From Candidatus Komeilibacteria bacterium RIFOXYD1_FULL_37_29 (GTDB lineage: Bacteria; Patescibacteriota; Patescibacteriia; UBA1558; GWA2-36-10), in NCBI GenBank assembly GCA_001818495.1, contig MHKS01000005.1, forward strand, positions 323,890 to 387,889: a DNA stretch of 64,000 nt, given 5' to 3'. Numbering within the stretch: position 1 is the stretch's first letter; each line of letters opens with the position of its first letter. The position numbers and the translations under genes were made by a program. Below are positions 26,702 to 47,030 of this stretch, piece after piece. The notes beneath the pieces were generated by a model, which was not told where the DNA came from, did not search any database, and worked only from the letters and a program-made list of their open reading frames with translations.

Positions 26702-26757
26702 TATTTTATACTTTTTGAGTGTTGACAGAGAGCTCTGAGTCAAGGGTTCTTTTTATT

Positions 26758-26786
26758 TTGTTGTAAAAGGCAAAATGTGTTATAAT
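26758..26786 (+). promoter_or_regulatory. Sigma70-like promoter with extended -10 (TTGTTG-17-TGT-TATAAT) upstream of the chemosensory/pilus operon
   Basis: Read directly from the sequence; ~55 nt upstream of the GTG start at 26840. Confidence 0.45.
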
Positions 26787-26839
26787 TTATTTGCCTACCT
26801 GTTTATAAATAGGCCGGAAAAACAAAAATAAATTACCCA

Positions 26840-27982
26840 GTGAAAGTATTTGAAACGAAAATTTATCTAAGGTTTTTATCTTGGTTTATTGCCGTAGCTT
26901 TTTGGCCCTTAGCAGCCTTATTTAGTCTCATATATTTTTTTGACCCCATGTTGTTTAGATCGGTATTTTCTGAATCCAGAGATACCGTTTTATTTGTCAT
27001 TTTTGTATCTTTAGCGGTAGTTTTATTACTATCTTTACTAGCTACCAGACTATTATCTCAGTCAATTACTAAACCAATTAAAATATCGGTTTTGGAGTTA
27101 TCTAAAGTAGTGGATAATCTATTCAAAACTATTCAAAATCTCTCTGAGATAACCCAAAATAATAGTAGCCTATCGCAATCTTTATTAGCGAGCAGCCAGA
27201 CGCAACAAGACGGATTAAAGACCGGTAACAAAGCTGTCCTAGATATCGCCAAATCTTTAAACGAAGTAGCTCAAAAAACCAAATCGGCCTCAGTCAAAGC
27301 TCGTAACGTTGATAAATTGGCCGGTGAAAGTGACGAGAAATCAAAAGAAGCTCTGGATAGTTTGGTGGTAGTGAAGCAGCTTTTAACCGAAAATCAAAAA
27401 TTAAGTCAAGCCTTAGATAAATATGCTAGCGATGTCAAAGATGTGGCTGGTCGGGTGGTAGCTTTGGCGGAGACAGTCAAGTTTCTTAGTTTAAATGTTT
27501 CTATTGAAGCCAGCAAAAATTCTTTTAGTGAAGATTTTTCCGAATTGGTTTCTCAAATTAGGGAGTTAAATATTGTCAGTGAACAGGCTGCTAACGCCAT
27601 TGGAGCTTTGGCCTCTAAGATGCAAAAGCAAATTGAGCAATCAAAAGACAGTTCTGATTACCAATGGAAAGAGACCACCAAAACGATTAGTGTGGTCAGT
27701 CAAACTATTATGTTTTTGGGCAAAATTGCTGAAAATATGACCCAAATATCTCAAAATGTCCAAGTAATTGATCAAGAGGCTCAAGAAACCAAAAACGATG
27801 CTCAAGACATTAGTAACATGATCAAGAAATTGAGTTCGGAAGCCAAAGCTCTAGTTGGCAATGTCGATGTAGTGATGCATACGATCAATCGGCAGGTATC
27901 TATTACCAAAGCTTTAAATGTATCTTCATCAGCCCTTAATGCCGTTACTAAAACTCTTAACGATTTAGTAGGAGAAAAATAA
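26840..27982 (+). CDS. Divergent methyl-accepting chemotaxis protein (MCP)-like transducer with two N-terminal TM helices and no periplasmic sensor domain
   Basis: GTG start per the ORF track. Two TMs separated by ~15 aa. A cytoplasmic coiled coil with LSLNVSIEASKNS...FSELVSQIRELN resembles the MCP signalling tip LALNAAIEAAR...FAVVADEVRKLA. Confidence 0.5.
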   Translation: MKVFETKIYLRFLSWFIAVAFWPLAALFSLIYFFDPMLFRSVFSESRDTVLFVIFVSLAVVLLLSLLATRLLSQSITKPIKISVLELSKVVDNLFKTIQNLSEITQNNSSLSQSLLASSQTQQDGLKTGNKAVLDIAKSLNEVAQKTKSASVKARNVDKLAGESDEKSKEALDSLVVVKQLLTENQKLSQALDKYASDVKDVAGRVVALAETVKFLSLNVSIEASKNSFSEDFSELVSQIRELNIVSEQAANAIGALASKMQKQIEQSKDSSDYQWKETTKTISVVSQTIMFLGKIAENMTQISQNVQVIDQEAQETKNDAQDISNMIKKLSSEAKALVGNVDVVMHTINRQVSITKALNVSSSALNAVTKTLNDLVGEK

Positions 27983-27983
27983 T

Positions 27984-28406
27984 ATGGCAGTCAGAACAGA
28001 AAAGTTTATATTATTTTATCTTGGTGGAGAAAAATATGCCTTACCGGCTTTATCGGCTAATCAGTTTATTGAGTTTAGTGATTTAGCTTTGGTGCCCAAG
28101 GCCGATCAGGATATCAGGGGCTTGATTTATCATAACGGCAATATTATTACTATTATTGATTTGAAGAGAGTTTTAAAGATTGTATCACCAAAACGAGAAG
28201 CTTCTCACATGTGTCTTACTTTTGAATACGGTGGGTATTATTATGGTCTATTGGTTGATCAAGGTGATGAGACTTTAGCAGTCAAAAATATTTCCAGTGA
28301 TAGACAAAGGCCAGTGTTTAAAAGATATTTTACAACGCCGGATAAAAAAAGAATTTATATTTTGGATATTGAGGAAGTATTGTCCCAAATAAATATTTAT
28401 GATTAG
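27984..28406 (+). CDS. cheW: CheW-like coupling protein
   Basis: Single CheW domain (FILFYLGGEKYALPALSANQFIEF...IRGLIYHNGNIITIIDLKRVL); good RBS GGAGAAAAA. Confidence 0.7.
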   Translation: MAVRTEKFILFYLGGEKYALPALSANQFIEFSDLALVPKADQDIRGLIYHNGNIITIIDLKRVLKIVSPKREASHMCLTFEYGGYYYGLLVDQGDETLAVKNISSDRQRPVFKRYFTTPDKKRIYILDIEEVLSQINIYD

Positions 28407-29943
28407 TGAAAAATATAAAGATTTATATTTAAGTACGACTAAACAGCAGTTGAAGAAATTGTCGGATCTGTTGTTATATTTGGAGAAAAAGCCTAGCAAT
28501 CAGAATTTGATTGAAAATATTTTTCGTTTAATCCATTCTATGAAGGGAGCGGCGGCTACGATGGGCTATAAAAAAACCGTTGATCTTTTGCATGCTATGG
28601 AATCAGTGGTAGATGGAGCTTATCACAGGGATTTGATTATAGACAGTAAAATATTAAATTTATTTTTTGATACTTTTGGTGTTTTGCAAGAAAATTTTAA
28701 AAGTATTGATAAAAGCAGTCGGGAAATAGTTTTGAATAAACCTATTTTGGCTTTAAAAAATTCATTAGGTCAAAAGCAAAAAAATAAAAAGCCAAACCAG
28801 CCCAGAGAAAAACATATCTTAGGATCTTTGCCTAGCGTAGCTGAGGTCACAATATCGACAGAAAAATTAGATGCCGTCTCTAATTCATTGGATGATCTTT
28901 TGATCAATTTTATGAAAGCGAAAAATAAGGTCAAGGATCTAGGGGATGTGGAATTTTTGAAGATATACGCTGAAAATGATCAGGTTTTGTCCAGTTTGAG
29001 ACGACAGTTGGAAAAAATCAGGATAGTTTCATTAAAAGATGTTTTATCTTCTTTGCCATATTTAGCCAAGGAAATAGCTAGAAATGAAGGGAAAAAAGTA
29101 GAAATAATTATTCGTGATCACGATTTATCTTTGGATAAAGCTATCTTGGATGAGCTCATGGAGATACTTATTCAATTGATAAAAAATGCCGTATCCCATG
29201 GTATTTCTAAGCAGCAAAGCAATGGTAAGGTAGTGATAGATTTTTCATTGTTAGATGACCGGATGCATATTTTAGTTAGTGATAATGGGCAGGGTATTAA
29301 TTGGACGGAGGTGGCTGATTTAGCAGTCAAAAATAAGCTTATCACTCGCCAAAAATTAAAAACCATGTCCCCAGAAGAAAGGAAAAAGGTTATTTTTTAT
29401 GTGGGAGTTTCCAAAGCTCAGACTCTTAGCACAGTTTCTGGAAGGGGTGTGGGTTTGAGTTTAGTCAAGAATAAAATAAGTGAATTAAACGGTTCTATCA
29501 GTGTCAGTAGTTCTTTGGGCAAGGGTACTCAGTTTGCCATTGATTTACCCCAACCCCTATCTGTTTTTCGGGGGATGATTTTTGGAGTTTTGAATTATAA
29601 TTTTGCTTTGCCGTTGGATCACATTGAAAAATTAGTATATTTGGACGAGGTAAAAAATTTTTCTAAAGCCAAGATTTTTACTTATCAGAAAAAAAAGTAT
29701 GAGGTAGTTTCTGTTTTAAATATTTTAAATATCAAAAAATTTGAGCCTCTTTATAAATATGTAGCTTTGATACATTATCAGAATAAAAAATTTGCTTTGC
29801 CAATTTTTCGGCAAGTAGAGGAAGAGGAATTGGTCATGAAAAAAATACCATTGGTTTTAAAAAATAATAAACATATCAAAGGTGTAGCCGTTTCGTCTCA
29901 GGGGCAAGTAATATTAGTTTTAAATATAAGTAGTCTAATCTAA
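28399..29943 (+). CDS. cheA: CheA-like histidine kinase (HPt P1, HATPase_c with N/G1/G2 boxes, C-terminal CheW-like P5; no P2)
   Basis: HPt motif IHSMKGAAATMGY; N-box NAVSHGI; G1 DNGQGI; G2 GRGVGLS; C-terminal CheW-like domain. Confidence 0.75.
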   Translation: MISEKYKDLYLSTTKQQLKKLSDLLLYLEKKPSNQNLIENIFRLIHSMKGAAATMGYKKTVDLLHAMESVVDGAYHRDLIIDSKILNLFFDTFGVLQENFKSIDKSSREIVLNKPILALKNSLGQKQKNKKPNQPREKHILGSLPSVAEVTISTEKLDAVSNSLDDLLINFMKAKNKVKDLGDVEFLKIYAENDQVLSSLRRQLEKIRIVSLKDVLSSLPYLAKEIARNEGKKVEIIIRDHDLSLDKAILDELMEILIQLIKNAVSHGISKQQSNGKVVIDFSLLDDRMHILVSDNGQGINWTEVADLAVKNKLITRQKLKTMSPEERKKVIFYVGVSKAQTLSTVSGRGVGLSLVKNKISELNGSISVSSSLGKGTQFAIDLPQPLSVFRGMIFGVLNYNFALPLDHIEKLVYLDEVKNFSKAKIFTYQKKKYEVVSVLNILNIKKFEPLYKYVALIHYQNKKFALPIFRQVEEEELVMKKIPLVLKNNKHIKGVAVSSQGQVILVLNISSLI

Positions 29944-29948
29944 CAATT

Positions 29949-30428
29949 ATGGGAGATAAAAAAGCAAAAATTTTATTTGTCGACGACGATAATTTTCTCC
30001 GAAAAGTCTATAAAGCAGAACTTAGTGAGCAGGGCTATGATGTTATTTTAGCGGCTGATGGCGAGGAGGGTTTGGAAAAGGCCAAAATAGCTGATCCGGA
30101 TTTAATTATCTTAGATATGATTATGCCAAAAAAGAATGGTTTCGAAGTTTTGACTGAGCTACAAAATGACCACAATACTCAAAACATACCGGTTATTATA
30201 TTATCAAACCTCGGGCAGGAAGATGACATTAAAAAGGGTTTGGATTTGGGAGCGGTTGATTATTTGGTCAAAGACAATATCACCTTAACCACCATTGTAG
30301 AAAAAGTAAGTTTATATTTAAATTCTAAGACCAGATCCAAGGTAGCTAAAATGAAAAATAATCATTCCGAAAAAAAAGAAGACCAACCGGAAGTGAAGGA
30401 TGTGGATAAATCAAACTTAGTCTACTAA
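29949..30428 (+). CDS. cheY: CheY-like single-domain response regulator with a short acidic/basic C-terminal tail
   Basis: KILFVDDDNFLRKV...DLIILDMIMPKKNGFEVL...KGLDLGAVDYLVK: receiver-domain signature residues (DD, D, T, K) all present. Confidence 0.75.
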   Translation: MGDKKAKILFVDDDNFLRKVYKAELSEQGYDVILAADGEEGLEKAKIADPDLIILDMIMPKKNGFEVLTELQNDHNTQNIPVIILSNLGQEDDIKKGLDLGAVDYLVKDNITLTTIVEKVSLYLNSKTRSKVAKMKNNHSEKKEDQPEVKDVDKSNLVY

Positions 30429-30462
30429 TTTTATGTTTTTAAAACGATAAATTTCAAATAGC

Positions 30463-32148
30463 ATGAGTATTATAAGTGATGAGAAAATTTATAAGATTAT
30501 TAGCAAAATCAGTTTGATTGAACCGAGTGTTTTGGATACGGCTTTGCAAACCGCCAAAGAAAAAAATGAAGATTTTGTAGATTTTTTAATAAAACAAGAA
30601 TTGATAAAATCTGATGAAATTGGCCAATTGATAGCCAATGACTTACATCTTAAATATGTTGACTTAAGTAAAGAAAAAATTGATTTGACGACACTTAATA
30701 CTATTCCAGAAATTGTCGCCCGTCGGCAGAAGCTCATAGTTTTTAAAAGAGATGAAGAGGGAGTAAAAGTAGCTATGGCGAATCCTTATGATTACGGCAT
30801 GATCAAAATGATTGAGAAAAAAGTTGGTGATCGGGTCTTCCCTTATTTTTCTACAGAGTATGATATCAACAATGCTTTTTCTTTTTATAGAAAATCAATT
30901 CAGCAAGAATACGCCGTCAATATCCAGAAGCATGCTATCAAGGCCCAGGGCACAAACGTAGAGTCTGTGCCAGTAGTCAAACTGGTTGATGATGTTTTTT
31001 CTTATGCTTATACCAATCATGCCTCCGATATACACATTGAACCAGAGGATAAAGAAATAAAGATTCGTTTTCGAATAGATGGTCTATTATATGATGTTTT
31101 ATCTTTAAATAAAGCCATTTTGGAATTGATAGTGGCTAGAATAAAAATTTTAGCCAAACTCAGAACCGATGAAAGTCGGTCCGCTCAAGATGGTAAAATT
31201 ATTACTAGAGTTGAGGGAGAAAAAGTGGATATTCGTGTTTCTATTGTACCAGTTACGCACGGTGAAAAAATAGTTATGCGTCTTTTATCTTCCAAGGGAC
31301 GACAGTTTAGTTTGGAAGATTTGGGCATGAATGAACGTGATTTAAAAATAGTTAAAAAAGCGTCCAGTCGACCCTATGGTATGATCTTATCCACTGGACC
31401 AACTGGTTCTGGTAAAACTACTACCCTTTATGCTTTGATCAAACTTTTAAATAATCGTAACATAAATATTTGTACTATTGAGGATCCAGTGGAATATGAT
31501 TTGGAAGGAGTAAATCAGATACAAGTAAATACTGCTACCAATCTTACTTTTGCCCAGGGGCTGAGGTCTTTGCTTCGTCAGGATCCGGACATCATCATGG
31601 TCGGAGAAATTAGAGACGAAGAGACCGCTGGCATTGCTGTCAATTCTGCTATGACTGGACATTTGGTATTATCTACTCTACATACCAACGACGCGGCTAC
31701 TTCTTTGCCTCGTCTTTTGGATATGAAAATCGAGCCGTTTCTGGTAGCCTCAACTGTTAATGTAATCATTGCTCAAAGATTATTGCGCAAAATTTGTATG
31801 AAATGTATTGTCTCTTATACTTTGACTGATCGAGAGTTGGAAGATTTAAAAACGGAAGTCGAGATTAGTCAGTTTTTAGATGTGAATAAAATCAGTGATA
31901 TTCGTTTTTATAAAGGTAAGGGTTGTAAATCTTGCAATAATAGCGGCTATAGCGGTCGGGTAGGTATTTTTGAAGTATTGGAAGTGAGTGACGATATAAA
32001 AGAGCTGATTTTGGCCAGAGCCAACAATGAACAGATCAAGAAAAAAGCTATGGCCAGTGGTATGACCAGTATGTTTGAAGATGGCTTTGAAAAAGCTGTC
32101 TCAGGAAAAACAACTTTAGAAGAAATATTTAGAGTTACTAAACAATAA
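30463..32148 (+). CDS. pilB: Type IV pilus assembly ATPase PilB (GspE family)
   Basis: N-terminal GSPII_E_N domain; Walker A GPTGSGKTTT; Asp and His boxes; tetracysteine CMKC...CKSC zinc motif. Confidence 0.85.
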   Translation: MSIISDEKIYKIISKISLIEPSVLDTALQTAKEKNEDFVDFLIKQELIKSDEIGQLIANDLHLKYVDLSKEKIDLTTLNTIPEIVARRQKLIVFKRDEEGVKVAMANPYDYGMIKMIEKKVGDRVFPYFSTEYDINNAFSFYRKSIQQEYAVNIQKHAIKAQGTNVESVPVVKLVDDVFSYAYTNHASDIHIEPEDKEIKIRFRIDGLLYDVLSLNKAILELIVARIKILAKLRTDESRSAQDGKIITRVEGEKVDIRVSIVPVTHGEKIVMRLLSSKGRQFSLEDLGMNERDLKIVKKASSRPYGMILSTGPTGSGKTTTLYALIKLLNNRNINICTIEDPVEYDLEGVNQIQVNTATNLTFAQGLRSLLRQDPDIIMVGEIRDEETAGIAVNSAMTGHLVLSTLHTNDAATSLPRLLDMKIEPFLVASTVNVIIAQRLLRKICMKCIVSYTLTDRELEDLKTEVEISQFLDVNKISDIRFYKGKGCKSCNNSGYSGRVGIFEVLEVSDDIKELILARANNEQIKKKAMASGMTSMFEDGFEKAVSGKTTLEEIFRVTKQ

Positions 32149-32152
32149 AAAT

Positions 32153-33370
32153 ATGTTATTTGCTTATAAAATTTCTGATGCTAAGAATAAAATAACTCAA
32201 GGAACCATTGAGGCGCCCAGTCGTGCCCAAGCCAGAAATCAGCTGATTTTAAAAGATGGAGCTTTAATATCTTTGGAACCAATCAGTCATAGAAAATCAA
32301 ATAATAATTTAGCCGGAAAGCAATTTTCATTGAGTAGAGTCAAGCTTTTAGAAAGAGTGATGTTTGCCAAACATTTGGCGGTCATGATAAAAGCTGGTAT
32401 GTCTATTGATAGTTCCATTGAGACACTAAGCGACAATTCTTCTCCAGCTATGTCTAGAGTTTTATTTGGTATTTTAAATGATGTGCGCACAGGTAATTCT
32501 TTTTCTTCAGCTTTGAGTAAATATAAACGGGATTTTGATTTATTGTTTATCAATATGGTGGCGGCTGGAGAAAAGGGTGGTAATTTAGCAAAAAATCTAA
32601 ATCTTTTAGCTATTCAACAGCAAAAAACTTATGAGCTTCGTAAAAAAATAAAATCAGCCTCTATTTATCCGACAGTTATAGCTTTGGCTATAGTCGGTCT
32701 AACGGCCGTAGTATCAAAATTTGTTTTACCAAAGATTGTGAATTTTTTTAGTAGCTTAAATGTTGAATTACCGTGGAGCACCAGAATATTAATAATGACT
32801 GCTCAGTTTTTTAGTACTTATTGGTTGTGGGTGGTAGTAATAGCGTTGGTTTTAGTAATTATTTGGGTAACCATGCTTAGGTTTACTGCTGGGCGCTTAA
32901 TCATACACGCTTTTATATTAAGATTGCCAATTTTAGGAAAATTGATATCTAATATGAACCTGGCTTTATTTTGTCGGACTTTGGCTAGTCTTTTAAATAG
33001 TGGTATTACCATTGATCAAGGGCTCCAAATTGTTTCCCAAACAATGACCAGTGAGGTTTATAAACAGCAAACTATACAGGTTTATTATCGTGTTTTAAAA
33101 GGAAATTCTTTGGCTAATTCTATTTCCAACAAAAGATATTTTCCCAGCATTGTTTCCCGTATGAGTATGGTGGGTGAAGAATCCGGTAATTTGAGTGAAG
33201 TATTGGATCATTTGGCAGATTTTTATGAACTAGAAGTGGACAATACTACTAAAAATCTTTCTAGTATGTTGGAGCCAGTACTACTAGTAGTTATTGGTTT
33301 GGCGGTTGGTTTTGTGGCTATGTCTATCATCAATCCTATTTATGATCTAACCAGTAAAATTAGTCCTTAG
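32153..33370 (+). CDS. pilC: Type IV pilus inner-membrane platform protein PilC (GspF family)
   Basis: Two T2SSF repeats and 3-4 TM helices; characteristic ...MVAAGEKGGNL... motif. Confidence 0.8.
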   Translation: MLFAYKISDAKNKITQGTIEAPSRAQARNQLILKDGALISLEPISHRKSNNNLAGKQFSLSRVKLLERVMFAKHLAVMIKAGMSIDSSIETLSDNSSPAMSRVLFGILNDVRTGNSFSSALSKYKRDFDLLFINMVAAGEKGGNLAKNLNLLAIQQQKTYELRKKIKSASIYPTVIALAIVGLTAVVSKFVLPKIVNFFSSLNVELPWSTRILIMTAQFFSTYWLWVVVIALVLVIIWVTMLRFTAGRLIIHAFILRLPILGKLISNMNLALFCRTLASLLNSGITIDQGLQIVSQTMTSEVYKQQTIQVYYRVLKGNSLANSISNKRYFPSIVSRMSMVGEESGNLSEVLDHLADFYELEVDNTTKNLSSMLEPVLLVVIGLAVGFVAMSIINPIYDLTSKISP

Positions 33371-34450
33371 ATGATCAGCTATAAAAAACAATTTGGCTTT
33401 ACTTTATTGGAAGTTTTGTTAATGGTCACTATTTTTGCTATTATTTTGTCTTATTCTTTTTCTTTGTCCAATAGCCAGATTTTTGAAGATGATTTGCACG
33501 CTAAGGTATTAGAAGTATCTGATTTGATAGAAAAAGCTAGAAATAATTCAGCCACCGGTTATCGCGGTGATGTCTGGAGCATCAAAGTGTTGGATAGTGA
33601 TGCCTTGTGTGATAATAGTGGTGATTGTATTTTGCTTTTTAAGGGTAATGATTTTAGTGGTCGAGATGCTATCTATGATTATTTTGTCCAATTTGATCAG
33701 AGTATCACTGGAGTTTATATAAATTCTGATCAGGAAAATGAATTTTATTTTGATTATAGTTCTGGTTGGCTGGCCACTACGACCGCATCTTCTTTGGAAC
33801 AACAATATATTATCTTCAATAATAATGCCGGAGATTCACAATCATTAGTAGTTTCTCCCAGCGGTGCAGTAAATACTTTTGTTTGTGGTGAAGATCAGGT
33901 TTTTGATATTAGTGGTCATGGTTATAATACTGTTAAAATCGGTAGTGATTGTTGGATGGCGGAAAATCTTAACACTGGTGAGATGATTGCCAGTGTCAGT
34001 ACCAGTCCCACCAATGATGGTGATATAGAAAAATGGTGTTATGCTGATTCGTCTGCCAATTGCGATATTTATGGTGGTCTCTATGCTTGGGATGAAGCAA
34101 TGAGCTATGTTACTACGGCTGGAGTCCAAGGCATTTGTCCCAATGGCTGGCATATACCCACTACTTCGGAAGTGAATTTGCTGGATAATTTTTATTCAGC
34201 CAATAATTTAAAAATTGGTGGTAACTCTGGTTTTGATCTTATGGCCGCCGGTGTGAGATTGGAATCATCTCCAGATGTCTATGGTAATATAGACGGCACG
34301 AGCGGTGACGGTGGATCTCTGTGGAGCTCCAATCAAAATGGCAGTAGTGAAGCTTATTATTATTGGTCAGAGGAAAATTTGAGTAATCTGGATCAATTTA
34401 GTGTTGATAAAGATTATGGTTTTAGTATTCGTTGCGTAAAAGATTATTAA
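33371..34450 (+). CDS. Prepilin-type protein (G|FTLLEVLL class III signal) with a C-terminal Fibrobacter-succinogenes-major-paralogous (Fib_succ_major, TIGR02145-like) domain
   Basis: N-terminal KKQFGFTLLEVLLMVTIFAIIL with Glu at +5; C-terminal motifs CWMAENLN, YGGLYAWDEA, GICPNGWHIPT and GFSIRCVKD match the Fib_succ_major signature. Confidence 0.6.
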   Translation: MISYKKQFGFTLLEVLLMVTIFAIILSYSFSLSNSQIFEDDLHAKVLEVSDLIEKARNNSATGYRGDVWSIKVLDSDALCDNSGDCILLFKGNDFSGRDAIYDYFVQFDQSITGVYINSDQENEFYFDYSSGWLATTTASSLEQQYIIFNNNAGDSQSLVVSPSGAVNTFVCGEDQVFDISGHGYNTVKIGSDCWMAENLNTGEMIASVSTSPTNDGDIEKWCYADSSANCDIYGGLYAWDEAMSYVTTAGVQGICPNGWHIPTTSEVNLLDNFYSANNLKIGGNSGFDLMAAGVRLESSPDVYGNIDGTSGDGGSLWSSNQNGSSEAYYYWSEENLSNLDQFSVDKDYGFSIRCVKDY

Positions 34451-34451
34451 A

Positions 34452-35369
34452 ATGTTTAAAATAATATTTAATAAAAATGGTTTTTCACTGGTTGAAGTAT
34501 TGGTGGCCTTGGGTATTTTTGCTGTATTAGCGGCCGGAATTTTTAATATTGTGACCAGCTCTTATAAAAATTTTTATGGTAAAGGCGACAAACAATCTTT
34601 GACACAATTTGCTCAGGAGGGCATAGAAGCGGTTCGCTCTATCCGTGATAATTCTTGGCAGGAAATAGAAAGCGTCGCCGGAGCAGGCAATAAAGGTTTG
34701 GTTAAAACCGATGGCTATTGGAGATTTAGCGGTACTAGTAATACTTTGAGTGCTTTGACTAGAGTAGTAGCCATTACCAATGCCCAGCGCAGTAGCGATA
34801 GTCAGATAGTGACTTCTGGTGGTACTACTGATCCCAATACTAAAAAAGTTACAGTCACAGTATCAAGTACCGGTATTGATGATTATGTTTTGGAAACTTA
34901 TTTGACTAACTGGTCTTATAAAACTTGGATACAGACTGATTGGTCGGGAGTGGGGGCTAGAGAATTTTGGTCAAACTCAGCTATGGCTTCTTCTTCTTAT
35001 AGCAATATCGCTACTTCCACTGGGCAGATAACAGTTACAAGCACCGCCAGCGTCTATGAGCCTACGGCCTATATTTATTCTTCTATTTACAGTATAGAGT
35101 CTGATGATCGGGAACTAAGAAGCGTTGAGGTAGAGCAAAATGTACCAGCTGGTTGTAGTCTGCAAATTACCGTTGAAGCTAGTAATACTACAAATATGGC
35201 TAGCGCTAGCAGTCAAGTTTTTAGTGACACTTCAGCTGGGTATTATGTCAGTTCTACTCCCACTAGTTTAAATGGTAAAAAGTTTTTGAGATATAAGCTA
35301 GATTTGACTTCTTGTAGCAGTCAAAGTGAGGCACCTATATTTTATTCTTTAAGTATTAATTATCGATGA
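34452..35369 (+). CDS. Prepilin-type minor pilin (G|FSLVEVLV), Ser/Thr-rich
   Basis: Class III signal peptide and hydrophobic alpha1 helix; globular domain rich in S/T. Confidence 0.55.
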   Translation: MFKIIFNKNGFSLVEVLVALGIFAVLAAGIFNIVTSSYKNFYGKGDKQSLTQFAQEGIEAVRSIRDNSWQEIESVAGAGNKGLVKTDGYWRFSGTSNTLSALTRVVAITNAQRSSDSQIVTSGGTTDPNTKKVTVTVSSTGIDDYVLETYLTNWSYKTWIQTDWSGVGAREFWSNSAMASSSYSNIATSTGQITVTSTASVYEPTAYIYSSIYSIESDDRELRSVEVEQNVPAGCSLQITVEASNTTNMASASSQVFSDTSAGYYVSSTPTSLNGKKFLRYKLDLTSCSSQSEAPIFYSLSINYR

Positions 35370-36652
35370 TGACTTTAAATAAAAAGGGTTTTTCTTTGGT
35401 GGAGGCCATAATCTATTTGGCTATCGTTGGTATTTTACTAACGGCGGTGATCAGTTTGCATTTGACGCTAGGAGGAACGTCTAGCAAGTTGGTCAACAAT
35501 ATTTTAGCTTCCCGCAACAGGCGTGTGTCTATGGGAGCAATGAACTATTTAGTCAAAAATTCTGATGGCTTATTGAAAGATTTGTCTGGTGATTGTTCAT
35601 CATTTGGAGCTACTCCGCCGGTTTTGGCTTTATATTTTGAGGATGATAATCATTTGCCAGGTACTTGCGTCGAAAGTGGCGGTGGAGTCAGGATAGCAGT
35701 GGCGGATAAAAAAATATCTTTAACTTGCTATCCTAATATGTCTGGTAATGGTTATTATCAAAATTGTTCTACCAGTGTTTATCCAGCCGGCAATGTTTAT
35801 TATCTTAGTTCAGACGATGTAGCAGTTTTAAATAATTCACTAGCCTTTTCTACTTCCACTTCTAGTTCTACAGCCAATAATTTTTTGGCCTTGACCACTC
35901 ATTTAAGTGTTGGTACCTTTGCTGGTCAGCAGGCACGTTTGACAGCTACCTCCACGGCTACTTCAACGGTTATTTTGCGTAATGAAGAAGCTAGTGGGCT
36001 GATCAGCTGGTACAAAATGGATGCCAGTCCAGGTTACACAGTAGATTCTAAGGGTCCAAATAACTTACAATGTGCCGGTGGGTCTGGTGTAACTGGTTTA
36101 ATAAATGGTAGTACCAACGCTTTTGATTTTGAAGCCAGCTCCGGTGATCCAGCGTGTTTTGATGTTAGTCCGCAATCATTTTATTTTAATAATGCTTTTA
36201 CTATTACGGCTTGGGTCAAAGAAGAAAGCAGCGGTGTGGATAGGCAAATACTGGGTATCTCAGATTATACTAATCGCGGTTATTCTTTTTATATAGACAA
36301 TGCTTATCCGATGTTGCGTATCGGTGATAGTAGTACTTATACTGATTATAATGGCACTGGTACAGCCATGACCACTGCTACGGTCTATAATGTAGCAGCC
36401 ACCTATGATTTGAATAATAATAAAATAGTCCTTTATGTTTATCAAAACGGAATTGGTGGTGTAGCGACTACCACTTTTACTACGGCTGCTACCCTGACCA
36501 ATTCTTATAGTAGTTTGTTTATTAGTGATGATGCTTCTGAAACAGCTGGCACAGATGAAAATTTTGATGGAGTAATAGATGAAGTAAGGGTTTACAATCG
36601 TGCTCTGACACCTCAGGAAATTTGGGCTATCCAATCGCAGGGTGCTCCTTAG
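35366..36652 (+). CDS. Prepilin-type protein (G|FSLVEAII) with a C-terminal LamG/concanavalin-A-like (Laminin_G_3) lectin-fold domain; candidate pilus-tip adhesin
   Basis: C-terminal ...FDGVIDEVRVYNRALTPQEIWAIQSQ is the hallmark ending of Laminin_G_3 domains; the start overlaps the upstream stop (ATGA). Confidence 0.6.
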   Translation: MMTLNKKGFSLVEAIIYLAIVGILLTAVISLHLTLGGTSSKLVNNILASRNRRVSMGAMNYLVKNSDGLLKDLSGDCSSFGATPPVLALYFEDDNHLPGTCVESGGGVRIAVADKKISLTCYPNMSGNGYYQNCSTSVYPAGNVYYLSSDDVAVLNNSLAFSTSTSSSTANNFLALTTHLSVGTFAGQQARLTATSTATSTVILRNEEASGLISWYKMDASPGYTVDSKGPNNLQCAGGSGVTGLINGSTNAFDFEASSGDPACFDVSPQSFYFNNAFTITAWVKEESSGVDRQILGISDYTNRGYSFYIDNAYPMLRIGDSSTYTDYNGTGTAMTTATVYNVAATYDLNNNKIVLYVYQNGIGGVATTTFTTAATLTNSYSSLFISDDASETAGTDENFDGVIDEVRVYNRALTPQEIWAIQSQGAP

Positions 36653-36656
36653 TTAA

Positions 36657-37538
36657 TTGTTCGTAATTTGCTATAATATAGTTATGCTCATAAAAATCAA
36701 AGAGGCCTTTAATCTTTCTTACCAGCGCTCTAGCAGTGGTGCTGTGGCTTTGATTTTGGTGATTATGATTACGGCTTTGACCATAGTTTCAGCGGTAGTA
36801 ATTTCTATGGTCAATACCTCCAATCTTATGTCTGCTTATTATTTCAGTGAGGATGAAAAAACATCAGTTGATTTGGATGCTTGTTTAGAAGATGCCCTGT
36901 TTCGTTTAGCCTCCAGTACTACTGCTTCTGGTACTTATTATCTAAATGGAGCCGGAGTCAATTGTTATTATCAGATAGCTTCCTCTATTTCTGGTGGTCT
37001 GAAAACAGTTACCTCTACGGCTAGTAGTACTTCGGATATTGGTTATTGGGAAGATACTATTGTTATGCAAATCAATGTTTCTAGTAGTCCAATTAGTGTT
37101 TACTCTTATAAAAATTTTGACATGTCCTATGCTTCGATTGTTGAGGGTGGTAGTTGTACTGCTACCTGTGGTAATGGTGCGGTAGAATGTGATGAAGTTT
37201 GTGATGATAGCAATACGACTACCGAATCTTGTGGAAATGGTAGTACAGATGTAGGTAAATGTAATGCTGATTGTAGTGCAGTAGTACCAGACGAAGTTTG
37301 TGATGATGGCAATACCAACACCGAAGCTTGTGGTGATGGTGTCAAGCAAACTGGCGGGGCTATTTATTGCAACAGTACTTGCACGGCCGTAGTTACTAGA
37401 AACGAAGCTTGTGATTATACCGGTGCTGAAGAGCCAAGTGATCCGGGTTGTTATTATGGAGATGTTGGTTGCACTATTAGATATAATGGTTGTCGGAATA
37501 GTTGTACTGCTTGCGCTATGTGTGCGATTGAACTGTAA
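36657..37538 (+). CDS. PilX_N-like pseudopilin with tandem Myxococcus-type cysteine-rich repeats (C-x-CGNG/CGDG...ECDDGN...)
   Basis: N-terminal QRSSSGAVALILVIMITALTIV resembles PilX N-domains; the C-terminal half has three CG(N/D)G-x-ECD(D/E)(S/G)N repeats and ~20 Cys. The start may instead be the internal Met at ~36684. Confidence 0.5.
   Translation: MFVICYNIVMLIKIKEAFNLSYQRSSSGAVALILVIMITALTIVSAVVISMVNTSNLMSAYYFSEDEKTSVDLDACLEDALFRLASSTTASGTYYLNGAGVNCYYQIASSISGGLKTVTSTASSTSDIGYWEDTIVMQINVSSSPISVYSYKNFDMSYASIVEGGSCTATCGNGAVECDEVCDDSNTTTESCGNGSTDVGKCNADCSAVVPDEVCDDGNTNTEACGDGVKQTGGAIYCNSTCTAVVTRNEACDYTGAEEPSDPGCYYGDVGCTIRYNGCRNSCTACAMCAIEL
37130..37400 (+). repeat. Three imperfect ~54-60 nt tandem direct repeats inside the CDS, encoding the cysteine-rich repeats
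   Basis: gaagtttgtgatgatagcaat...tgtggaaatggt / gaagtttgtgatgatggcaatacc...tgtggtgatggt read directly. Confidence 0.5.
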
Positions 37539-37572
37539 TTTTATATGGTTAATAAATTATATATTATATGCT

Positions 37573-39309
37573 ATGGCAAAAAATATAATTGGTCTGGATA
37601 TTTCCGATTCTTCTATTGAAGCTCTGTCCTTAGAAAAACATCGGGGAAATTTTGTAGTAGAAGCATATTCTCGTTTTCGTTTGTCGCCGGAAATAGTGGC
37701 TAATGGTCGAGTTTTAGATAAGGAAAAACTCAAGGAAGCTATTGTTAAATTGTTTAACAATGCCAAGCCCGTAGCTTTTGACAAATCACGCAAAGTTTTT
37801 TTATCTATTCCGGAGTCACAAACATTTTCTAAAGTTTTATCTATCCCCAGAAATATCAAAAATAAAGATTTAGAAACAGCGGCTTTTACTCAGGCCGAGG
37901 AATTAATCCCAGAAAATATTAATCGGTTGACCGCTATTATAAAGGTTTTATCGGAAAAAAATGATCAAAAACAGGTTTGTTATGTAGCTGCCGAAACCGA
38001 GGTTTTGCAGGAGTTTGTCGATGTTTTCAAGGAATTGGATATTGAGATAGCTGGTATTACTACTGAAACCACCAGCTCTTTCAATGGTTTGAAAAAAGAT
38101 AAAGATAAAAAAAATACTTTACTTTTAGATTTGGGTGCTAGTACTACCATTGCTTCTGTTTTTTCTGAGGAAGGCCTTGGCTCTAGTATAAATATAAATA
38201 TTGGCGGTAATAATATTACCGAAGCGATTGCCCAAAAATTAAATATTACTCATAGTAAAGCGGAGCAGAAAAAAGTTAAAAATGGTTTGACCTCCACTGA
38301 ATCGGGTGAGATTATGTTGATTTCGCAGGGGCAGCTTCAGCCGCTAGTTGATGAATTAAAGATTTTTGTAAATTTTTGGCAGACATCTACTGGTTTGGTT
38401 ATAGAGCGGGTAGTTTTAATCGGAGGATTGTCTCAAATGAAAGGAGCTGATAAATATTTTGGTGACAATTTAAATTTACCGACCAAAATTGGCGAGCCAT
38501 TTATTGATAAAAGTTCTTTGCCGGCCAAATTGGAGTTTAGCAAGTATATAAATGTTTTGGGATTGGCTAGATTGGCCCAACAGGAAGCTGAAGTTGATTT
38601 TTATAAAAAATTACCAAAAGATTTTGGTAAAAAAACAGATCTTGGCCAAACGGTATTGGTTAAAGAAAATGTGTTTAAAAAATTTTTACGGATTATCAAT
38701 CCACTAAATTTATTAGTAGTGTTTAAAAATAAATATTTCGTGGTAGTCTTGGCGCTAGCAGTTTTGGCAGTAGTCGGATTTTTGTTTAAAGATAGGCTGT
38801 GGCCAGAGCCAGGGCCAATCAGCGTCGAGCAGCTTATAATAATTTCTAATGACGAGACAAAAATAGCAGAAAATTTTGTCGGGGGAGAATATTTTGATTT
38901 TCGTGTGTTTAAATTTTATGACACCGCTACTGACAGCGAATTGCCGGCCGACTATGTGGATAATTTTGCCAACACTTTAAAACGTTTGGAGGCCAACGCC
39001 AACGCCAAGGTGGAGTCTTTGATCAAAGAGTATAATCCTGAGGATTTCTATGTCTTACCTAGGGTAATATCTTATGAGATTATAAGCACCAAACCAACGG
39101 CCGAGGATTATCAGCCCGGTCAAGAATTAAAGGCTGATTTCAACTATGTATTTATGATGGTATCCGAAGAAGAAATCAAGAAAATATTGGTAGCCGAATA
39201 CCCAGAATTGACCAACAAGATCAATACTTTAGCTTATGAAGTAGTAGTCTATAGTCATAGTGAGGGAGGCGAGTATTTTGAAGTTTTGGTTTCAGTTAAT
39301 AAGAGATAG
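37573..39309 (+). CDS. pilM: PilM (actin-like ATPase fold) fused to a PilN-like TM segment and a PilO/periplasmic-like C-terminal domain
   Basis: Start at MAKNIIGLDISDSSIEAL (PilM N-terminus); a mid-protein TM YFVVVLALAVLAVVGFLF; ~150 aa C-terminal extracytoplasmic domain. The track ORF starts upstream at 37411 in the overlap. Confidence 0.6.
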   Translation: MAKNIIGLDISDSSIEALSLEKHRGNFVVEAYSRFRLSPEIVANGRVLDKEKLKEAIVKLFNNAKPVAFDKSRKVFLSIPESQTFSKVLSIPRNIKNKDLETAAFTQAEELIPENINRLTAIIKVLSEKNDQKQVCYVAAETEVLQEFVDVFKELDIEIAGITTETTSSFNGLKKDKDKKNTLLLDLGASTTIASVFSEEGLGSSININIGGNNITEAIAQKLNITHSKAEQKKVKNGLTSTESGEIMLISQGQLQPLVDELKIFVNFWQTSTGLVIERVVLIGGLSQMKGADKYFGDNLNLPTKIGEPFIDKSSLPAKLEFSKYINVLGLARLAQQEAEVDFYKKLPKDFGKKTDLGQTVLVKENVFKKFLRIINPLNLLVVFKNKYFVVVLALAVLAVVGFLFKDRLWPEPGPISVEQLIIISNDETKIAENFVGGEYFDFRVFKFYDTATDSELPADYVDNFANTLKRLEANANAKVESLIKEYNPEDFYVLPRVISYEIISTKPTAEDYQPGQELKADFNYVFMMVSEEEIKKILVAEYPELTNKINTLAYEVVVYSHSEGGEYFEVLVSVNKR

Positions 39310-39329
39310 TCGAGGGTATTGGCATTTAT

Positions 39330-39358
39330 TTGAAAAATTGCTATAATGTCTGTATAAT
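39330..39358 (+). promoter_or_regulatory. Sigma70-like promoter (TTGAAA-17-TATAAT) for the major pilin gene, followed by a (TA)7 tract at ~39365-39379
   Basis: Hexamers and spacer read directly; the (TA)n run lies between the -10 element and the RBS. Confidence 0.45.
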
Positions 39359-39399
39359 ATGTTATATATATATATATAATTTTAATAATTTTATAAAGT

Positions 39400-39894
39400 A
39401 TGCAAATTAAACAAAAAGGTTTCACTCTTATTGAGTTGATCATAGTAATAGCTATTATAGCTTTATTAGCGGCTGCCACCTTTGTAGCTGTCAATCCAGC
39501 TAAGCGTATCGGCGATGCCAACAATGCCCAGCGTTGGGCAGATATATCGGCAATTGCTGACGCCTGGCAGACGTATACAGCCGACAATAGTGGTACTACC
39601 GCTACTACAGTTACCAATGGAGTAACTTATTCTATTACTTCATCTACCCCTCCAAGTGGCGCAGCTGTTAATGTTTGTCAGGGTAATACTGGCAATCCTA
39701 CCACCACCTCAGCTTTTGTTAGTTTGGTAGCATTAAGAACAAGCGGTTATATTGGTCAAATACCTTCTGATCCAACTTATGTTGTGGGCGATGGTCGAAA
39801 TACTGGTTATTATTTTTATACTGATTCAACCGGCGCTGTCAAAGTTGGTTCTTGCGAAACCTACAATACTCAAAATGTTGAAGTAGTCCGCTAA
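39400..39894 (+). CDS. pilA: Type IVa major pilin (PilA-like)
   Basis: MQIKQKGFTLIELIIVIAIIALLAAATFVAV: canonical G|FTLIE prepilin signal with Glu5; 164 aa; its own promoter and a strong terminator. Confidence 0.8.
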   Translation: MQIKQKGFTLIELIIVIAIIALLAAATFVAVNPAKRIGDANNAQRWADISAIADAWQTYTADNSGTTATTVTNGVTYSITSSTPPSGAAVNVCQGNTGNPTTTSAFVSLVALRTSGYIGQIPSDPTYVVGDGRNTGYYFYTDSTGAVKVGSCETYNTQNVEVVR

Positions 39895-39910
39895 ATATTT
39901 TAAATTATTA

Positions 39911-39943
39911 TCCAGTCCCTCCTTTGGTGGGGCTGGATTTTTG
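39911..39943 (+). terminator. Intrinsic terminator (TCCAGTCCC...GGGGCTGGA, then TTTTT)
   Basis: 9-bp stem with one G.U pair plus a T-run, 17 nt after the pilA stop. Confidence 0.6.
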
Positions 39944-40035
39944 TTGCCAGAGTAACTTTTATAGTTTATTATAAGATAGTTTGTAAAAATGTTTTGATTT
40001 AAGTATAATACACATACATAATATTAATAAAAGAT

Positions 40036-41697: not shown

Positions 41698-41699
41698 TT

Positions 41700-42410: not shown

Positions 42411-42413
42411 TTT

Positions 42414-43655: not shown

Positions 43656-43660
43656 TAAAT

Positions 43661-44983: not shown

Positions 44984-45055
44984 ACCCCGTTAGAAATTGA
45001 AAGTAATTCATTGGACGGGGTAAAATATGAATAAATAGTATTTCTAACGGGGTAT
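44984..45055 (+). promoter_or_regulatory. 15-nt perfect inverted repeat (TACCCCGTTAGAAAT ... ATTTCTAACGGGGTA) in the hrcA 5'-UTR; the 3' arm overlaps the SD-like GGGG and the ATG. Candidate RNA thermometer or second operator.
   Basis: Arms at ~44984-44998 and ~45041-45055; an extra internal copy of ACGGGGTA at ~45016 could allow alternative pairing. Confidence 0.4.
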
Positions 45056-45713: not shown

Positions 45714-45742
45714 TTTACTAGTTCACTATAATTTTAAAAATA

Positions 45743-46261: not shown

Positions 46262-46285
46262 TAATTAAAGAAAGGAGAAAACATT

Positions 46286-47020: not shown

Positions 47021-47030
47021 TTTAAAAAAT

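What the first reader, a model, noticed from the sequence alone, without database searches (positions are those of the whole stretch)
26758..39943. Minimal chemosensory cassette (MCP-like, CheW, CheA, CheY) transcriptionally fused to a type IV pilus operon
Nine genes from the MCP-like transducer to PilM-PilN run gap-less or overlapping on one strand behind a single recognisable promoter (CheW/CheA overlap 8 nt; pilin genes overlap 1-4 nt). The separately promoted major pilin follows immediately. The transducer has two TMs with only a ~15-aa external loop, so no ligand-binding domain, and a divergent signalling tip. The window contains no CheR, CheB, CheZ or CheD, so there is no adaptation module; CheA lacks P2. 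By analogy with Pil-Chp/Frz-type systems this looks like a stripped-down chemosensory pathway dedicated to controlling pilus extension, twitching or adhesion rather than flagella; no flagellar genes are present in the window. In a small-genome, possibly episymbiotic CPR-like organism this could be the host- or surface-sensing circuit. A chemosensory module hard-wired into the pilus operon itself is unusual.
Basis: partly seen in the sequence, partly recalled or inferred. Interest (0 to 1): 0.78.

Follow-up and report, generated by a model that had tools for sequence, protein, structure and literature searches.

The report
Chemosensory kinase module heading a pilus operon
In a clade of ultra-small Patescibacteria (CPR) bacteria, a stripped-down chemotaxis-type signalling module sits at the head of the operon that builds their type IV pili, which suggests how these host-dependent cells could steer or trigger the appendage they use to reach and hold other cells.

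Summary
Window 26758-39944 is one tightly packed plus-strand gene array: MCP-like transducer, CheW, CheA, a CheY-like receiver, PilB, PilC, four minor pilins and a PilM-PilN-like fusion. That is eleven genes, not nine. A separately promoted major pilin and a strong terminator follow. All domain calls were recovered.

The window matches Candidatus Komeilibacteria RIFOXYC1_FULL_37_11. The same gene order is kept in every related locus examined: about 33 CheA-anchored loci and 14 PilB-anchored loci. The cheY-pilB gap has a median of 6 nt.

- **Transducer:** no sensor domain, no HAMP and no methylation consensus. Its hairpin tip is one residue shorter than in TM1143.
- **CheA:** P1-P3-P4-P5, with no P2.
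- **Receiver:** as conserved as PilB.

More distant CPR pilus operons carry a classical histidine kinase plus one to three related receivers in front of pilB. One subclade keeps only a P1-P4 mini-kinase. The general scheme is therefore kinase, then single-domain receiver, then pilus motor, and the Che array is one clade's version of the kinase.

It is not a member of the Pil-Chp (Tfp) class. I rate it a new variant of a known kind. Whole-genome absence of CheR/CheB/PilT could not be tested.

The parts
26727..26752 (+). Terminator-like hairpin followed by a T-run. It closes the upstream methyltransferase/glycan operon.
   Evidence: Terminator scan. RNA fold -11.4 kcal/mol.
26758..26786 (+). Candidate operon promoter: weak -35 TTGTTG (26758-63), 17-nt spacer including the TG motif, extended -10 TGTTATAAT (26778-86).
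   Evidence: Read directly from the sequence. Not statistically supported on its own.
26840..27982 (+). MCP-like transducer, 380 aa, GTG start. It has two TM helices (about 10-33 and 49-71), a variable 15-aa outer loop, no HAMP, and a roughly 44-heptad hairpin with a shortened tip.
   Evidence: Pfam MCPsignal 38.5 bits. Family alignments. PDB alignment to TM1143. AF2 model. No methylation consensus.
27984..28406 (+). CheW coupling protein, 140 aa.
   Evidence: Pfam CheW 66.6 bits.
28399..29943 (+). CheA kinase, 514 aa: P1 (Hpt, His46), disordered linker, P3, P4, P5. No P2.
   Evidence: Pfam. Invariant H46 and N/G1/F/G2 boxes. Alignment to E. coli and T. maritima CheA. AF2 model with pLDDT 79. 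Foldseek top hit 1b3q.
29949..30428 (+). CheY-like single-domain receiver, 159 aa. The phospho-acceptor set is conserved, and a conserved extra C-terminal helix precedes a disordered tail.
   Evidence: Pfam Response_reg 88 bits. Family alignment. 65-84% identity across the family (86% in the closest PilB-anchored loci).
30463..32148 (+). PilB-type extension ATPase, 561 aa, with an N-terminal MshEN/T2SSE_N domain and a tetracysteine motif.
   Evidence: Pfam T2SSE 440 bits. NCBIfam PilB 528 bits and GspE 533 bits. Sequence.
32153..33370 (+). PilC platform protein, 405 aa.
   Evidence: Pfam T2SSF 187 bits. NCBIfam GspF/PilC.
33371..34450 (+). Modular minor pilin 1: class III signal peptide (KKQFG|FTLLE) plus a Fib_succ_major (FISUMP) module.
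34452..35369 (+). Minor pilin 2 (NKNG|FSLVE).
35366..36652 (+). Modular minor pilin 3 (NKKG|FSLVE) with a concanavalin-A-like lectin (Laminin_G_3) module.
36657..37538 (+). Fourth minor pilin, GspK/PilX-like: hydrophobic N-terminus without Glu5, and Cys-rich C-terminal repeats. The true start is probably ATG 36684.
   Evidence: Translation. Syntenic homologue in most loci. No Pfam hit.
37573..39309 (+). PilM actin-like ATPase fused to a TM helix and a roughly 170-aa outer domain (PilN-like by position). 578 aa from ATG 37573.
   Evidence: Pfam PilM_2 110 bits. NCBIfam pilM. Translation. Homologues are 583-591 aa.
39319..39358 (+). Strong internal promoter(s) for the major pilin: TTGGCA-17-TATAAT with TG, and an overlapping TTGAAA-17-TATAAT.
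   Evidence: 11 of 12 matches. Sequence.
39400..39894 (+). Major type IV pilin, 164 aa (KG|FTLIEL), 21% Ser/Thr.
   Evidence: Pfam N_methyl. NCBIfam..
39911..39944 (+). Intrinsic terminator closing the operon.
   Evidence: Hairpin of -20 kcal/mol followed by UUUUUGUU.

Best explanation
The locus is a lineage-specific, minimal chemosensory phosphorelay that is part of the type IV pilus operon of a clade of Patescibacteria (Komeilibacteria and related Parcubacteria).

**Proposed mechanism**
1. A sensor-less, HAMP-less two-TM transducer forms a signalling complex with CheW and a P1-P3-P4-P5 CheA.
2. CheA autophosphorylates on His46 and passes the phosphoryl group to the single-domain receiver encoded directly in front of pilB.
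3. The phosphorylated receiver acts post-translationally on the pilus motor (PilB, or its PilC/PilM partners) to switch or tune extension of a lectin-tipped, probably adhesive pilus.
4. No methylation-based adaptation takes place.

**What is shown**
- The domain content and the catalytic residues.
- The gene packing.
- Strict synteny across the clade.
- Receiver-pilB adjacency in many other CPR lineages.

**What is inferred**
- A single transcript.
- Phosphotransfer from CheA to this receiver.
- The motor as the target.
- The nature of the input. The likeliest input is something sensed through TM1 and the N-terminus or in the cytoplasm, such as the state of the pilus machinery or the membrane pilin pool, rather than an external ligand.
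For: **Synteny**
- The order is identical in about 33 CheA-anchored loci at 38-75% CheA identity, and in L007 at 26%.
- In the independent PilB-anchored scan, 14 of 14 loci with PilB at 65% identity or more have the receiver directly upstream. All 7 with enough upstream DNA have CheA, and 6 of those 7 have the MCP.

**Gene packing**
- Across the family the cheY-pilB gap has a median of 6 nt and CheW/CheA overlap by a median of 8 nt.
- No terminator or hairpin lies at the junction.

**Functional residues**
- H46 and the N, G1, F and G2 boxes are invariant in 22 CheAs.
- The receiver keeps DD, D57, S87 and K109.
- The P3-P4-P5 fold is confirmed.

**Link between receiver and motor**
- The receiver (65-84% identity) is as conserved as PilB (68-87%) and far more conserved than MCP, CheW or CheA.
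- 37 of 60 more distant CPR pilB loci carry one to three related receivers (42-56% identity) directly upstream of pilB, fed by classical histidine kinases.
- A reduced subclade lost MCP, CheW, P3 and P5 but kept P1-P4, the receiver and PilB.

**No adaptation**
- The window transducer has no methylation consensus, and the motif is not conserved across the family (strict matches in only 4 of 24 members). There is no C-terminal pentapeptide.
- No CheR, CheB, CheD or CheZ occurs in the window, in its flanks, or in the family loci whose called genes were listed (L001-L007, L090).

**Precedent**
- CheY-like regulators act on PilB in Pseudomonas (PMC12632253) and in Synechocystis (10.1101/2021.06.11.447907).
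Against: - There is no experimental evidence of any kind: no transcript data, phosphotransfer assay or interaction data.
- The receiver has no feature that marks it as PilB-binding. By sequence it resembles generic receivers (PhoP, RR468, PleD) as much as CheY.
- The MCP Pfam score is only just above its threshold (38.5 against 34.6), and NCBIfam has no hit for it.
- The one-residue deletion in the tip could impair canonical array packing.
- No retraction ATPase or prepilin peptidase is nearby, so the type of pilus dynamics being controlled is unknown.
- Whole genomes could not be searched. A second che locus, CheR/CheB, or another target cannot be excluded.
Confidence: 0.7

Rival explanations
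1. The Che module is an 'alternative cellular function' pathway that happens to be co-transcribed with the pilus genes. In this view the receiver controls something else, such as expression of pilus or surface-glycan genes or a second-messenger enzyme, and not the pilus motor.
For: - The operon is always next to a surface-glycan cluster (Bac_transf, Polysacc_synt, Wzy_C).
- In basal and divergent members the receiver carries a C-terminal zinc ribbon that could bind nucleic acid or another partner.
- The receiver sequence is generic.
Against: - In the window the receiver has no output domain at all.
- Its position immediately 5' of pilB is kept even in lineages where the kinase type differs.
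- The glycan genes are on separate, partly divergent transcription units, and in the window they are separated from Wzy_C by 24 kb.
Confidence: 0.12
2. The machine is not a motility or adhesion pilus. It is a DNA-uptake (competence) pilus or a secretion pseudopilus, and the phosphorelay gates uptake or secretion.
For: - PilB scores as well against GspE as against PilB, and also matches ComGA.
- No PilT is present in the window or in any family locus.
- CPR bacteria lack nucleotide synthesis, and type IV pili have been linked to competence in Saccharibacteria (PMC11623550).
Against: - Two minor pilins carry lectin-type modules (Fib_succ_major and Laminin_G_3), which suits adhesion to glycans.
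- ComGA matches only the ATPase core, whereas the full-length architecture is PilB-like.
- This reading changes the output, not the signalling logic, so it is not exclusive of the best explanation.
Confidence: 0.13
3. The che genes are a decaying relic of an ancestral chemotaxis system and no longer signal.
For: - The tip is divergent and carries a one-residue deletion.
- The Pfam score is borderline.
- One subclade has lost MCP, CheW, P3 and P5.
Against: - All catalytic residues are invariant across 22 CheAs that share only 26-75% identity.
- Nearly all full-length transducers are 377-386 aa long, most exactly 380, in 80 clusters.
- No frameshifts or stop codons were seen in the family loci aligned.
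- Even the reduced form keeps His46 and the ATP-binding boxes.
Confidence: 0.05

Closest known systems
Pil-Chp system of Pseudomonas aeruginosa (Tfp class of chemosensory systems)
   Same: An MCP, a CheW-like coupler, a CheA-type kinase and CheY-like single-domain regulators control type IV pilus extension through the PilB ATPase (PMC12632253).
   Different: **Pil-Chp**
- A large periplasmic ligand-binding domain on PilJ.
- Two CheWs.
- ChpA with nine Hpt-like domains and a C-terminal receiver.
- Two antagonistic regulators, PilG and PilH.
- CheR (PilK) and CheB (ChpB).
- By my own knowledge, it lies in a locus separate from pilBCD.

**Here**
- No sensor domain.
- One CheW, one Hpt, no receiver on CheA, and one regulator.
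- No CheR or CheB found.
- The genes head the pilB-pilC operon itself.
Cyanobacterial Tax1/Pix phototaxis systems (PixJ-PixL-PixG/PixH; PATAN-CheY regulators binding PilB1)
   Same: A chemotaxis-like kinase phosphorylates CheY-like regulators that interact with the type IV pilus motor (PMC11181946; 10.1101/2021.06.11.447907).
   Different: The cyanobacterial receptors carry photosensory domains. Their kinase is a hybrid CheA-receiver, their regulators often carry PATAN domains, and (by my own knowledge) their loci are not fused to pilB-pilC.
Archaeal Che system controlling the archaellum (F1-type Che, CheY-CheF-archaellum motor)
   Same: A Che module controls a type IV filament machine built around PilB/PilC homologues. 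The window CheA scores best against the haloarchaeal CheA model: 256 bits, against 148 bits for the E. coli type. Its transducer length matches the 44-heptad class of TM1143.
   Different: By my own knowledge and PMC7289035, archaeal systems keep CheR, CheB, CheC and CheD and need the adaptor CheF, and the filament rotates. None of those genes is seen here.
PilS-PilR two-component systems inside pilus gene clusters
   Same: A kinase and a response regulator are encoded among the pilus genes. PilS is thought to monitor membrane pilin (my own knowledge), which is a possible analogy for a sensor-less two-TM transducer.
   Different: PilR is a sigma-54 transcriptional activator with a DNA-binding domain. 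The receiver here is a single domain, and the kinase is CheA-type.
Modular pilins of Streptococcus sanguinis (monoderm type IV pili)
   Same: These are pilins with grafted lectin-like modules in a monoderm pilus with PilM/N components (my own knowledge). Here, the modules are Fib_succ_major and Laminin_G_3.
   Different: No chemosensory or receiver genes are reported in that operon, as far as I know.

Membership tests
Chemosensory (Che-type) signalling system, core definition | CheA-type kinase with Hpt (P1), dimerisation (P3), HATPase (P4) and CheW-like (P5) domains | tested here: met
   Pfam finds Hpt, HATPase_c and CheW. P3 was not found by Pfam, but it aligns to CheA P3 of E. coli and T. 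maritima and is modelled as a helical hairpin at 154-208. The Foldseek top hit is 1b3q.
Chemosensory (Che-type) signalling system, core definition | Separate CheW coupling protein | tested here: met
   Pfam CheW 66.6 bits against a cut-off of 23.5.
Chemosensory (Che-type) signalling system, core definition | Transducer with an MCP signalling hairpin and a conserved tip | tested here: inconclusive
   MCPsignal scores 38.5 bits against a cut-off of 34.6. The tip motif LSLNxSIEA...F..LV.QIRELN is recognisable, but it is one residue shorter than in TM1143. NCBIfam has no hit.
Chemosensory (Che-type) signalling system, core definition | CheY-like receiver with a complete phospho-acceptor pocket | tested here: met
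   DD, D57, S87 and K109 equivalents are conserved in 28 sequences. Pfam Response_reg scores 88 bits.
Methylation-based adaptation (CheR/CheB) | cheR and cheB genes, and the methylation consensus [ASTG][ASTG]xx[EQ][EQ]xx[ASTG][ASTG] on the receptor | tested here: not met
   The window transducer has no match to the consensus, and the motif is not conserved in the family: strict matches occur in only 4 of 24 members. No CheR or CheB Pfam hit occurs in the window, in about 15 kb of flanks, or in the +/-10 kb loci L001-L007 and L090. Whole genomes were not searchable.
Tfp class (Pil-Chp-like) chemosensory systems | CheA with multiple Hpt domains and a C-terminal receiver domain (94% of Tfp CheAs with multiple Hpt domains; PMC10782961) | tested here: not met
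   There is a single Hpt and no receiver on CheA.
Tfp class (Pil-Chp-like) chemosensory systems | Phylogenetic placement of CheA (P3-P4-P5) within the Tfp clade | not testable with these tools
   No class reference profiles are available. Indirectly, the nearest named matches are haloarchaeal and Thermotoga-type CheAs, and the nearest non-CPR relative sits in a full che locus with CheB, CheC, CheD and CheR.
Type IVa-like pilus assembly system (monoderm type) | PilB ATPase, PilC platform, PilM(-N), a major pilin and a set of minor pilins with class III signal peptides | tested here: met
Type IVa-like pilus assembly system (monoderm type) | Prepilin peptidase PilD and retraction ATPase PilT | tested here: not met
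   Neither is present in the window, in its flanks, or within +/-10 kb of 33 family loci. They may be encoded elsewhere in the genome, which was not testable.

The most novel reading that the evidence does not exclude
The sensor-less transducer does not read the environment at all. Instead it reads the pilus machine. Through its invariant N-terminus and TM1 (T6-K7-I8-Y9, F12, F16, P23) it monitors the membrane pilin pool or the PilC/PilM-N platform. The receptor array, CheA and the receiver would then form a built-in mechanosensory feedback loop in which the phosphorylated receiver is an obligatory cofactor of PilB. Under this reading, kinase, then single-domain receiver, then PilB is an ancestral and general control principle of type IV pili across the Candidate Phyla Radiation. 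Different lineages plug in a Cache-PAS histidine kinase, a bare kinase core, a full chemoreceptor array or a P1-P4 mini-CheA. This is the circuit by which these episymbionts detect and commit to a host cell.
Probability: 0.2. Interest if true: 0.85.

Novelty: new variant of a known kind. Interest (0 to 1): 0.66.

Why it matters
Type IV pili are essential for the episymbiotic life of the few cultivated Patescibacteria and drive their motile, host-seeking phase (PMC11665869, PMC11623550). How these cells sense hosts or regulate their pili is not known. The recent perspective (PMC11665869) does not mention chemotaxis, chemosensing, two-component or signal-transduction systems, and the pilus survey (PMC11623550) does not mention chemotaxis, chemosensing, CheY or response regulators.

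This locus, and the broader kinase-receiver-pilB pattern found around it, gives a concrete and compact candidate circuit. It has four small proteins and a single obvious target.

It also offers the chemotaxis field a natural minimal system for studying signalling and array formation:
- no sensor domain;
- no HAMP;
- no P2;
- no evidence of methylation-based adaptation;
- a tip one residue shorter than in TM1143;
- a naturally occurring P1-P4 mini-CheA in a related subclade.

Tried and rejected
**Literature.** Nine full-text searches were run for CPR, Patescibacteria, Parcubacteria or Komeilibacteria combined with chemotaxis, CheA, CheW, chemosensory or pili. No paper describing this arrangement was found. 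One search was useless because 'CheW' matched 'chewing'. The library excludes most subscription journals, so absence there is weak evidence.

**Tandem-receiver proteins.** The roughly 275-aa tandem-receiver proteins that scored high with the CheY query (P0179, P0232) sit next to classical kinases in unrelated contexts. I dropped this lead.

**Methyltransferase next to the MCP.** I considered whether the methyltransferase gene just upstream of the MCP (25937-26701) might be a CheR substitute. It matches generic Methyltransf_11 rather than CheR, and the adjacency is not conserved across loci. I rejected the idea.

**Structure prediction input.** The third homologue search was used to rebuild the alignment.

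**Promoter and terminator scans.** These are no better than shuffled sequence and were not used as evidence.

**Rfam.** The scan finds only two tRNAs, so there is no riboswitch in the operon leaders.

**Whole-genome search.** A search for cheR, cheB, pilT and pilD was not possible. Extending the window by about 6 kb on one side and about 9 kb on the other found none.

**Family size.** A full HMMER scan with the CheA profile showed that only about eight 50%-identity representatives stand above the continuum of ordinary CheAs. The genomic context of the new ones could not be fetched.

Full report
**1. What is there**

The window has about 35% GC. Its CheY-like protein is 100% identical to a protein of Candidatus Komeilibacteria bacterium RIFOXYC1_FULL_37_11 (P0121).

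Between 26758 and 39944 the plus strand carries these genes:
- an MCP-like transducer (26840-27982);
- CheW (27984-28406);
- CheA (28399-29943);
- a CheY-like receiver (29949-30428);
- PilB (30463-32148);
- PilC (32153-33370);
- three pilins with class III signal peptides (33371-34450, 34452-35369, 35366-36652);
- a fourth, GspK/PilX-like pilin (36657-37538);
- PilM fused to a TM helix and an outer domain (37573-39309, from the most likely ATG);
- after a 90-nt spacer with a near-consensus promoter, the major pilin (39400-39894).

Gaps range from an 8-nt overlap to +34 nt.

The array is bracketed by two structures. Upstream lies a terminator-like hairpin (26727-26752) followed by an extended -10 element (TGTTATAAT, 26778-26786). 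Downstream lies a -20 kcal/mol terminator (39911-39944). The cheY-pilB spacer has no structure. The generic promoter and terminator scan is no better than shuffled sequence, so a single transcript is an inference from gene packing.

**2. The parts**

*CheA.*
- It has an Hpt domain with the phospho-acceptor His46 in the HSMKGAA motif.
- Residues 124-153 form a disordered, Lys-rich linker.
- A helical hairpin at 154-208 aligns with the P3 dimerisation domain of E. coli and T. maritima CheA.
- P4 and P5 domains follow.
- There is no P2.
- His46 and the N, G1, F and G2 boxes are invariant in 22 family members that share as little as 26% identity.

*Transducer.*
- It has two TM helices joined by a 15-residue loop. 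That loop is the least conserved part of the protein, with a mean column identity of 0.31. The N-terminal stub scores 0.81 and the tip 0.72.
- The AF2 model, which is moderate in quality (pLDDT 66), shows TM2 running on as one unbroken helix from residue 47 to 181. The hairpin turn lies at 224-231.
- The two arms are about 156 and 150 residues long. That leaves no room for a HAMP domain and matches the length of 44-heptad receptors such as TM1143, which is the best PDB match (E = 0.003).
- The tip motif LSLNVSIEASKNS-FSEDFSELVSQIRELN is recognisable, but it is one residue shorter than the TM1143 tip.
- The window transducer carries no methylation consensus, and the motif is not conserved across the family. 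There is no C-terminal pentapeptide.

*Receiver.*
- It keeps the whole phospho-acceptor pocket and adds a conserved C-terminal helix (KVSxYLNSKTxSK).
- In basal and divergent members, a zinc ribbon follows that helix.

*Minor pilins.* Two of them carry lectin-type modules, Fib_succ_major and Laminin_G_3. This suggests an adhesive, glycan-binding pilus tip.

**3. Is the fusion real and conserved?**

*CheA-anchored view.*
- A CheA search found about 58 clusters of 511-521-aa CheAs from Patescibacteria, Parcubacteria and Komeilibacteria at 38-75% identity. Below that, scores drop sharply to ordinary CheAs at about 26% identity.
- A word-index-free HMMER scan shows only about eight 50%-identity representatives above the continuum of 22,989 CheA-like proteins.
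- In every locus fetched, the order is MCP-CheW-CheA-CheY-PilB-PilC-minor pilins-PilM-major pilin. This covers five context look-ups and about 30 species representatives from the genome collection.
- A lineage with only 26% CheA identity (L007), whose MCP is 621 aa, has the same order.
- Across the family, the cheY-pilB gap has a median of 6 nt.

*PilB-anchored view.* Because that set was selected on CheA, I repeated the test starting from PilB in the metagenome collection.
- All 14 loci with PilB at 65% identity or more have the receiver directly upstream.
- All 7 of those with enough upstream DNA have CheA.
- 6 of those 7 have the MCP.

*Nearest relatives outside the clade.* The nearest non-CPR CheAs have no PilB within 10 kb. 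One that I inspected sits in a full che locus with CheB, CheC, CheD and CheR.

**4. The wider pattern**

The PilB-anchored scan also returned 66 loci with PilB at 51-58% identity. Names attached to identical proteins place some of them in other CPR groups: Buchananbacteria, 'Patescibacteria group' and ACD_50.
- 37 of the 60 with enough sequence have one to three single-domain receiver genes within 400 nt upstream of pilB. These receivers are 42-56% identical to the window receiver.
- None of these loci has an MCP.
- The gene in front of the receivers is a classical histidine kinase. It is dCache-HAMP-PAS-HisKA-HATPase in L132, L145 and L165, and PAS-HisKA-HATPase in L127, L137, L155 and L167.
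- In L113 and L125 a bare HisKA-HATPase lies between pilB and the receivers.

The conserved core is therefore a single-domain receiver next to pilB, and the kinase feeding it is interchangeable.

The loci L041, L090 and L101 fit the same picture. They have lost MCP, CheW, P3 and P5, yet they keep a 296-aa P1-P4 protein with His46 and the ATP-binding boxes, followed by the receiver and PilB. What this subclade retains is the ability to phosphorylate the receiver, not the ability to sense.

**5. How it most likely works**

I judge the following sequence most likely, with confidence of about 0.7.
1. The transducer, CheW and CheA form a signalling complex.
2. CheA phosphorylates the adjacent receiver.
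3. The phosphorylated receiver acts directly on PilB or its platform to control pilus extension.

This parallels PilG in Pseudomonas (PMC12632253) and the CheY-like regulators that bind PilB1 in Synechocystis (10.1101/2021.06.11.447907; PMC11181946).

Two observations support the motor as the target. The receiver is as conserved as PilB (65-84% against 68-87%), whereas MCP (33-72%), CheW (25-63%) and CheA (38-75%) drift much more. Its position 5' of pilB also survives a change of kinase type.

The input is unknown. The outer loop is short and variable, whereas the N-terminus and TM1 are nearly invariant. An external ligand is therefore unlikely. Sensing within the membrane or the cytoplasm, for instance of the pilin pool or the machinery, is more plausible, but this is speculation.

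I found no evidence of adaptation by methylation. Whole genomes could not be searched.

**6. Comparison with known systems**

It works like Pil-Chp, Tax1 or Frz, but it fails the tested architectural features of the Tfp class:
- a single Hpt rather than several;
- no receiver domain on CheA;
- one CheW and one regulator;
- no CheR or CheB found.

These features of Pil-Chp and the Tfp class come from PMC10782961 and PMC12632253.

Its CheA and its transducer length resemble the F1-type systems of Thermotoga, Firmicutes and Archaea. That recalls the archaeal Che-archaellum coupling, another Che module driving a type IV filament machine. The auxiliary proteins of that system are absent here.

I found no description of this arrangement in the searchable literature. 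A 2024 perspective on Patescibacteria and a survey of pilus genes across 868 CPR genomes mention neither chemosensing nor response regulators. The library is incomplete, and public annotation already labels the individual genes as MCP and CheA.

**7. Verdict**

I rate it a new variant of a known kind: chemosensory control of type IV pili, here reduced to four proteins and built into the pilus operon of a CPR clade.

The more general and possibly more important point is that kinase-receiver-pilB modules are common in CPR pilus operons. Interest: 0.66.

Noticed in passing
L090:10001-13243; also L041 and L101: A reduced variant of the system. There is no MCP and no CheW, and CheA has shrunk to 296 aa: P1 plus P4, with His46 and the N/G1/G2 boxes kept but P3 and P5 deleted. 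A receiver with a zinc ribbon, PilB and PilC follow.
   Followed up: partly
L105-L170 (e.g. L132:2820-7680, L145:2772-7680, L137:4003-7680, L113:5995-9177): In other CPR lineages (PilB 51-58% identical), the pilus operon starts with a classical histidine kinase, either dCache-HAMP-PAS-HisKA-HATPase or a shorter form. One to three single-domain receivers (42-56% identical to the window receiver) follow, and then pilB-pilC. 37 of 60 loci have such a receiver within 400 nt of pilB.
   Followed up: partly
L003:11569-12243, L005:11569-12240, L007:4599-5192, L030, L041, L090:10896-11552: In basal and divergent members, the pilB-adjacent receiver carries a C-terminal zinc ribbon (CPxC...CPxCG) after a long linker. 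The window protein lacks it.
   Followed up: partly
window 100-26701; upstream of the MCP in nearly all related loci: A surface-glycan cluster always lies next to the operon: Polysacc_synt flippase, epimerase and Bac_transf on the minus strand, then one or two Wzy_C (O-antigen-ligase/PglL-like) genes. In the window, about 24 kb of GT4 glycosyltransferases, methyltransferases, AsnB and a PMT_2 enzyme are inserted between Wzy_C and the MCP. The major pilin is 21% Ser/Thr, so pilin O-glycosylation is a candidate function.
   Followed up: partly
window 36657-37538: The fourth minor pilin has no Pfam hit. It ends in Cys-rich repeats of the form CGNG..C..C...V.DE.CDD.N, an unusual module for a pilin.
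   Followed up: no
window 40036-44899; also L029:12540-12950: A HlyD/MacA-like adaptor, an ABC ATPase and two MacB-type permeases follow the pilin terminator. A HlyD homologue also follows the pilin gene in L029.
   Followed up: no
L016, L020, L021, L024-L027, L030, L031 (record titles): Several third-party-annotated MAG records that carry this CPR-type operon are titled 'uncultured Gammaproteobacteria bacterium'. This looks like a mislabelled taxonomy.
   Followed up: no
window 45054-50092: The heat-shock operon reads hrcA-grpE-hsp20-(111-aa ORF without a Pfam hit)-dnaK-dnaJ. The predicted HrcA is only 219 aa and matches just the C-terminal part of the HrcA profile. tRNA-Thr and tRNA-Trp follow at 50210 and 50505.
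   Followed up: no
L007:793-2658: The divergent lineage with the same che-pil order has a 621-aa transducer. Its first roughly 390 residues match no Pfam family, so they may be a novel sensor region.
   Followed up: no
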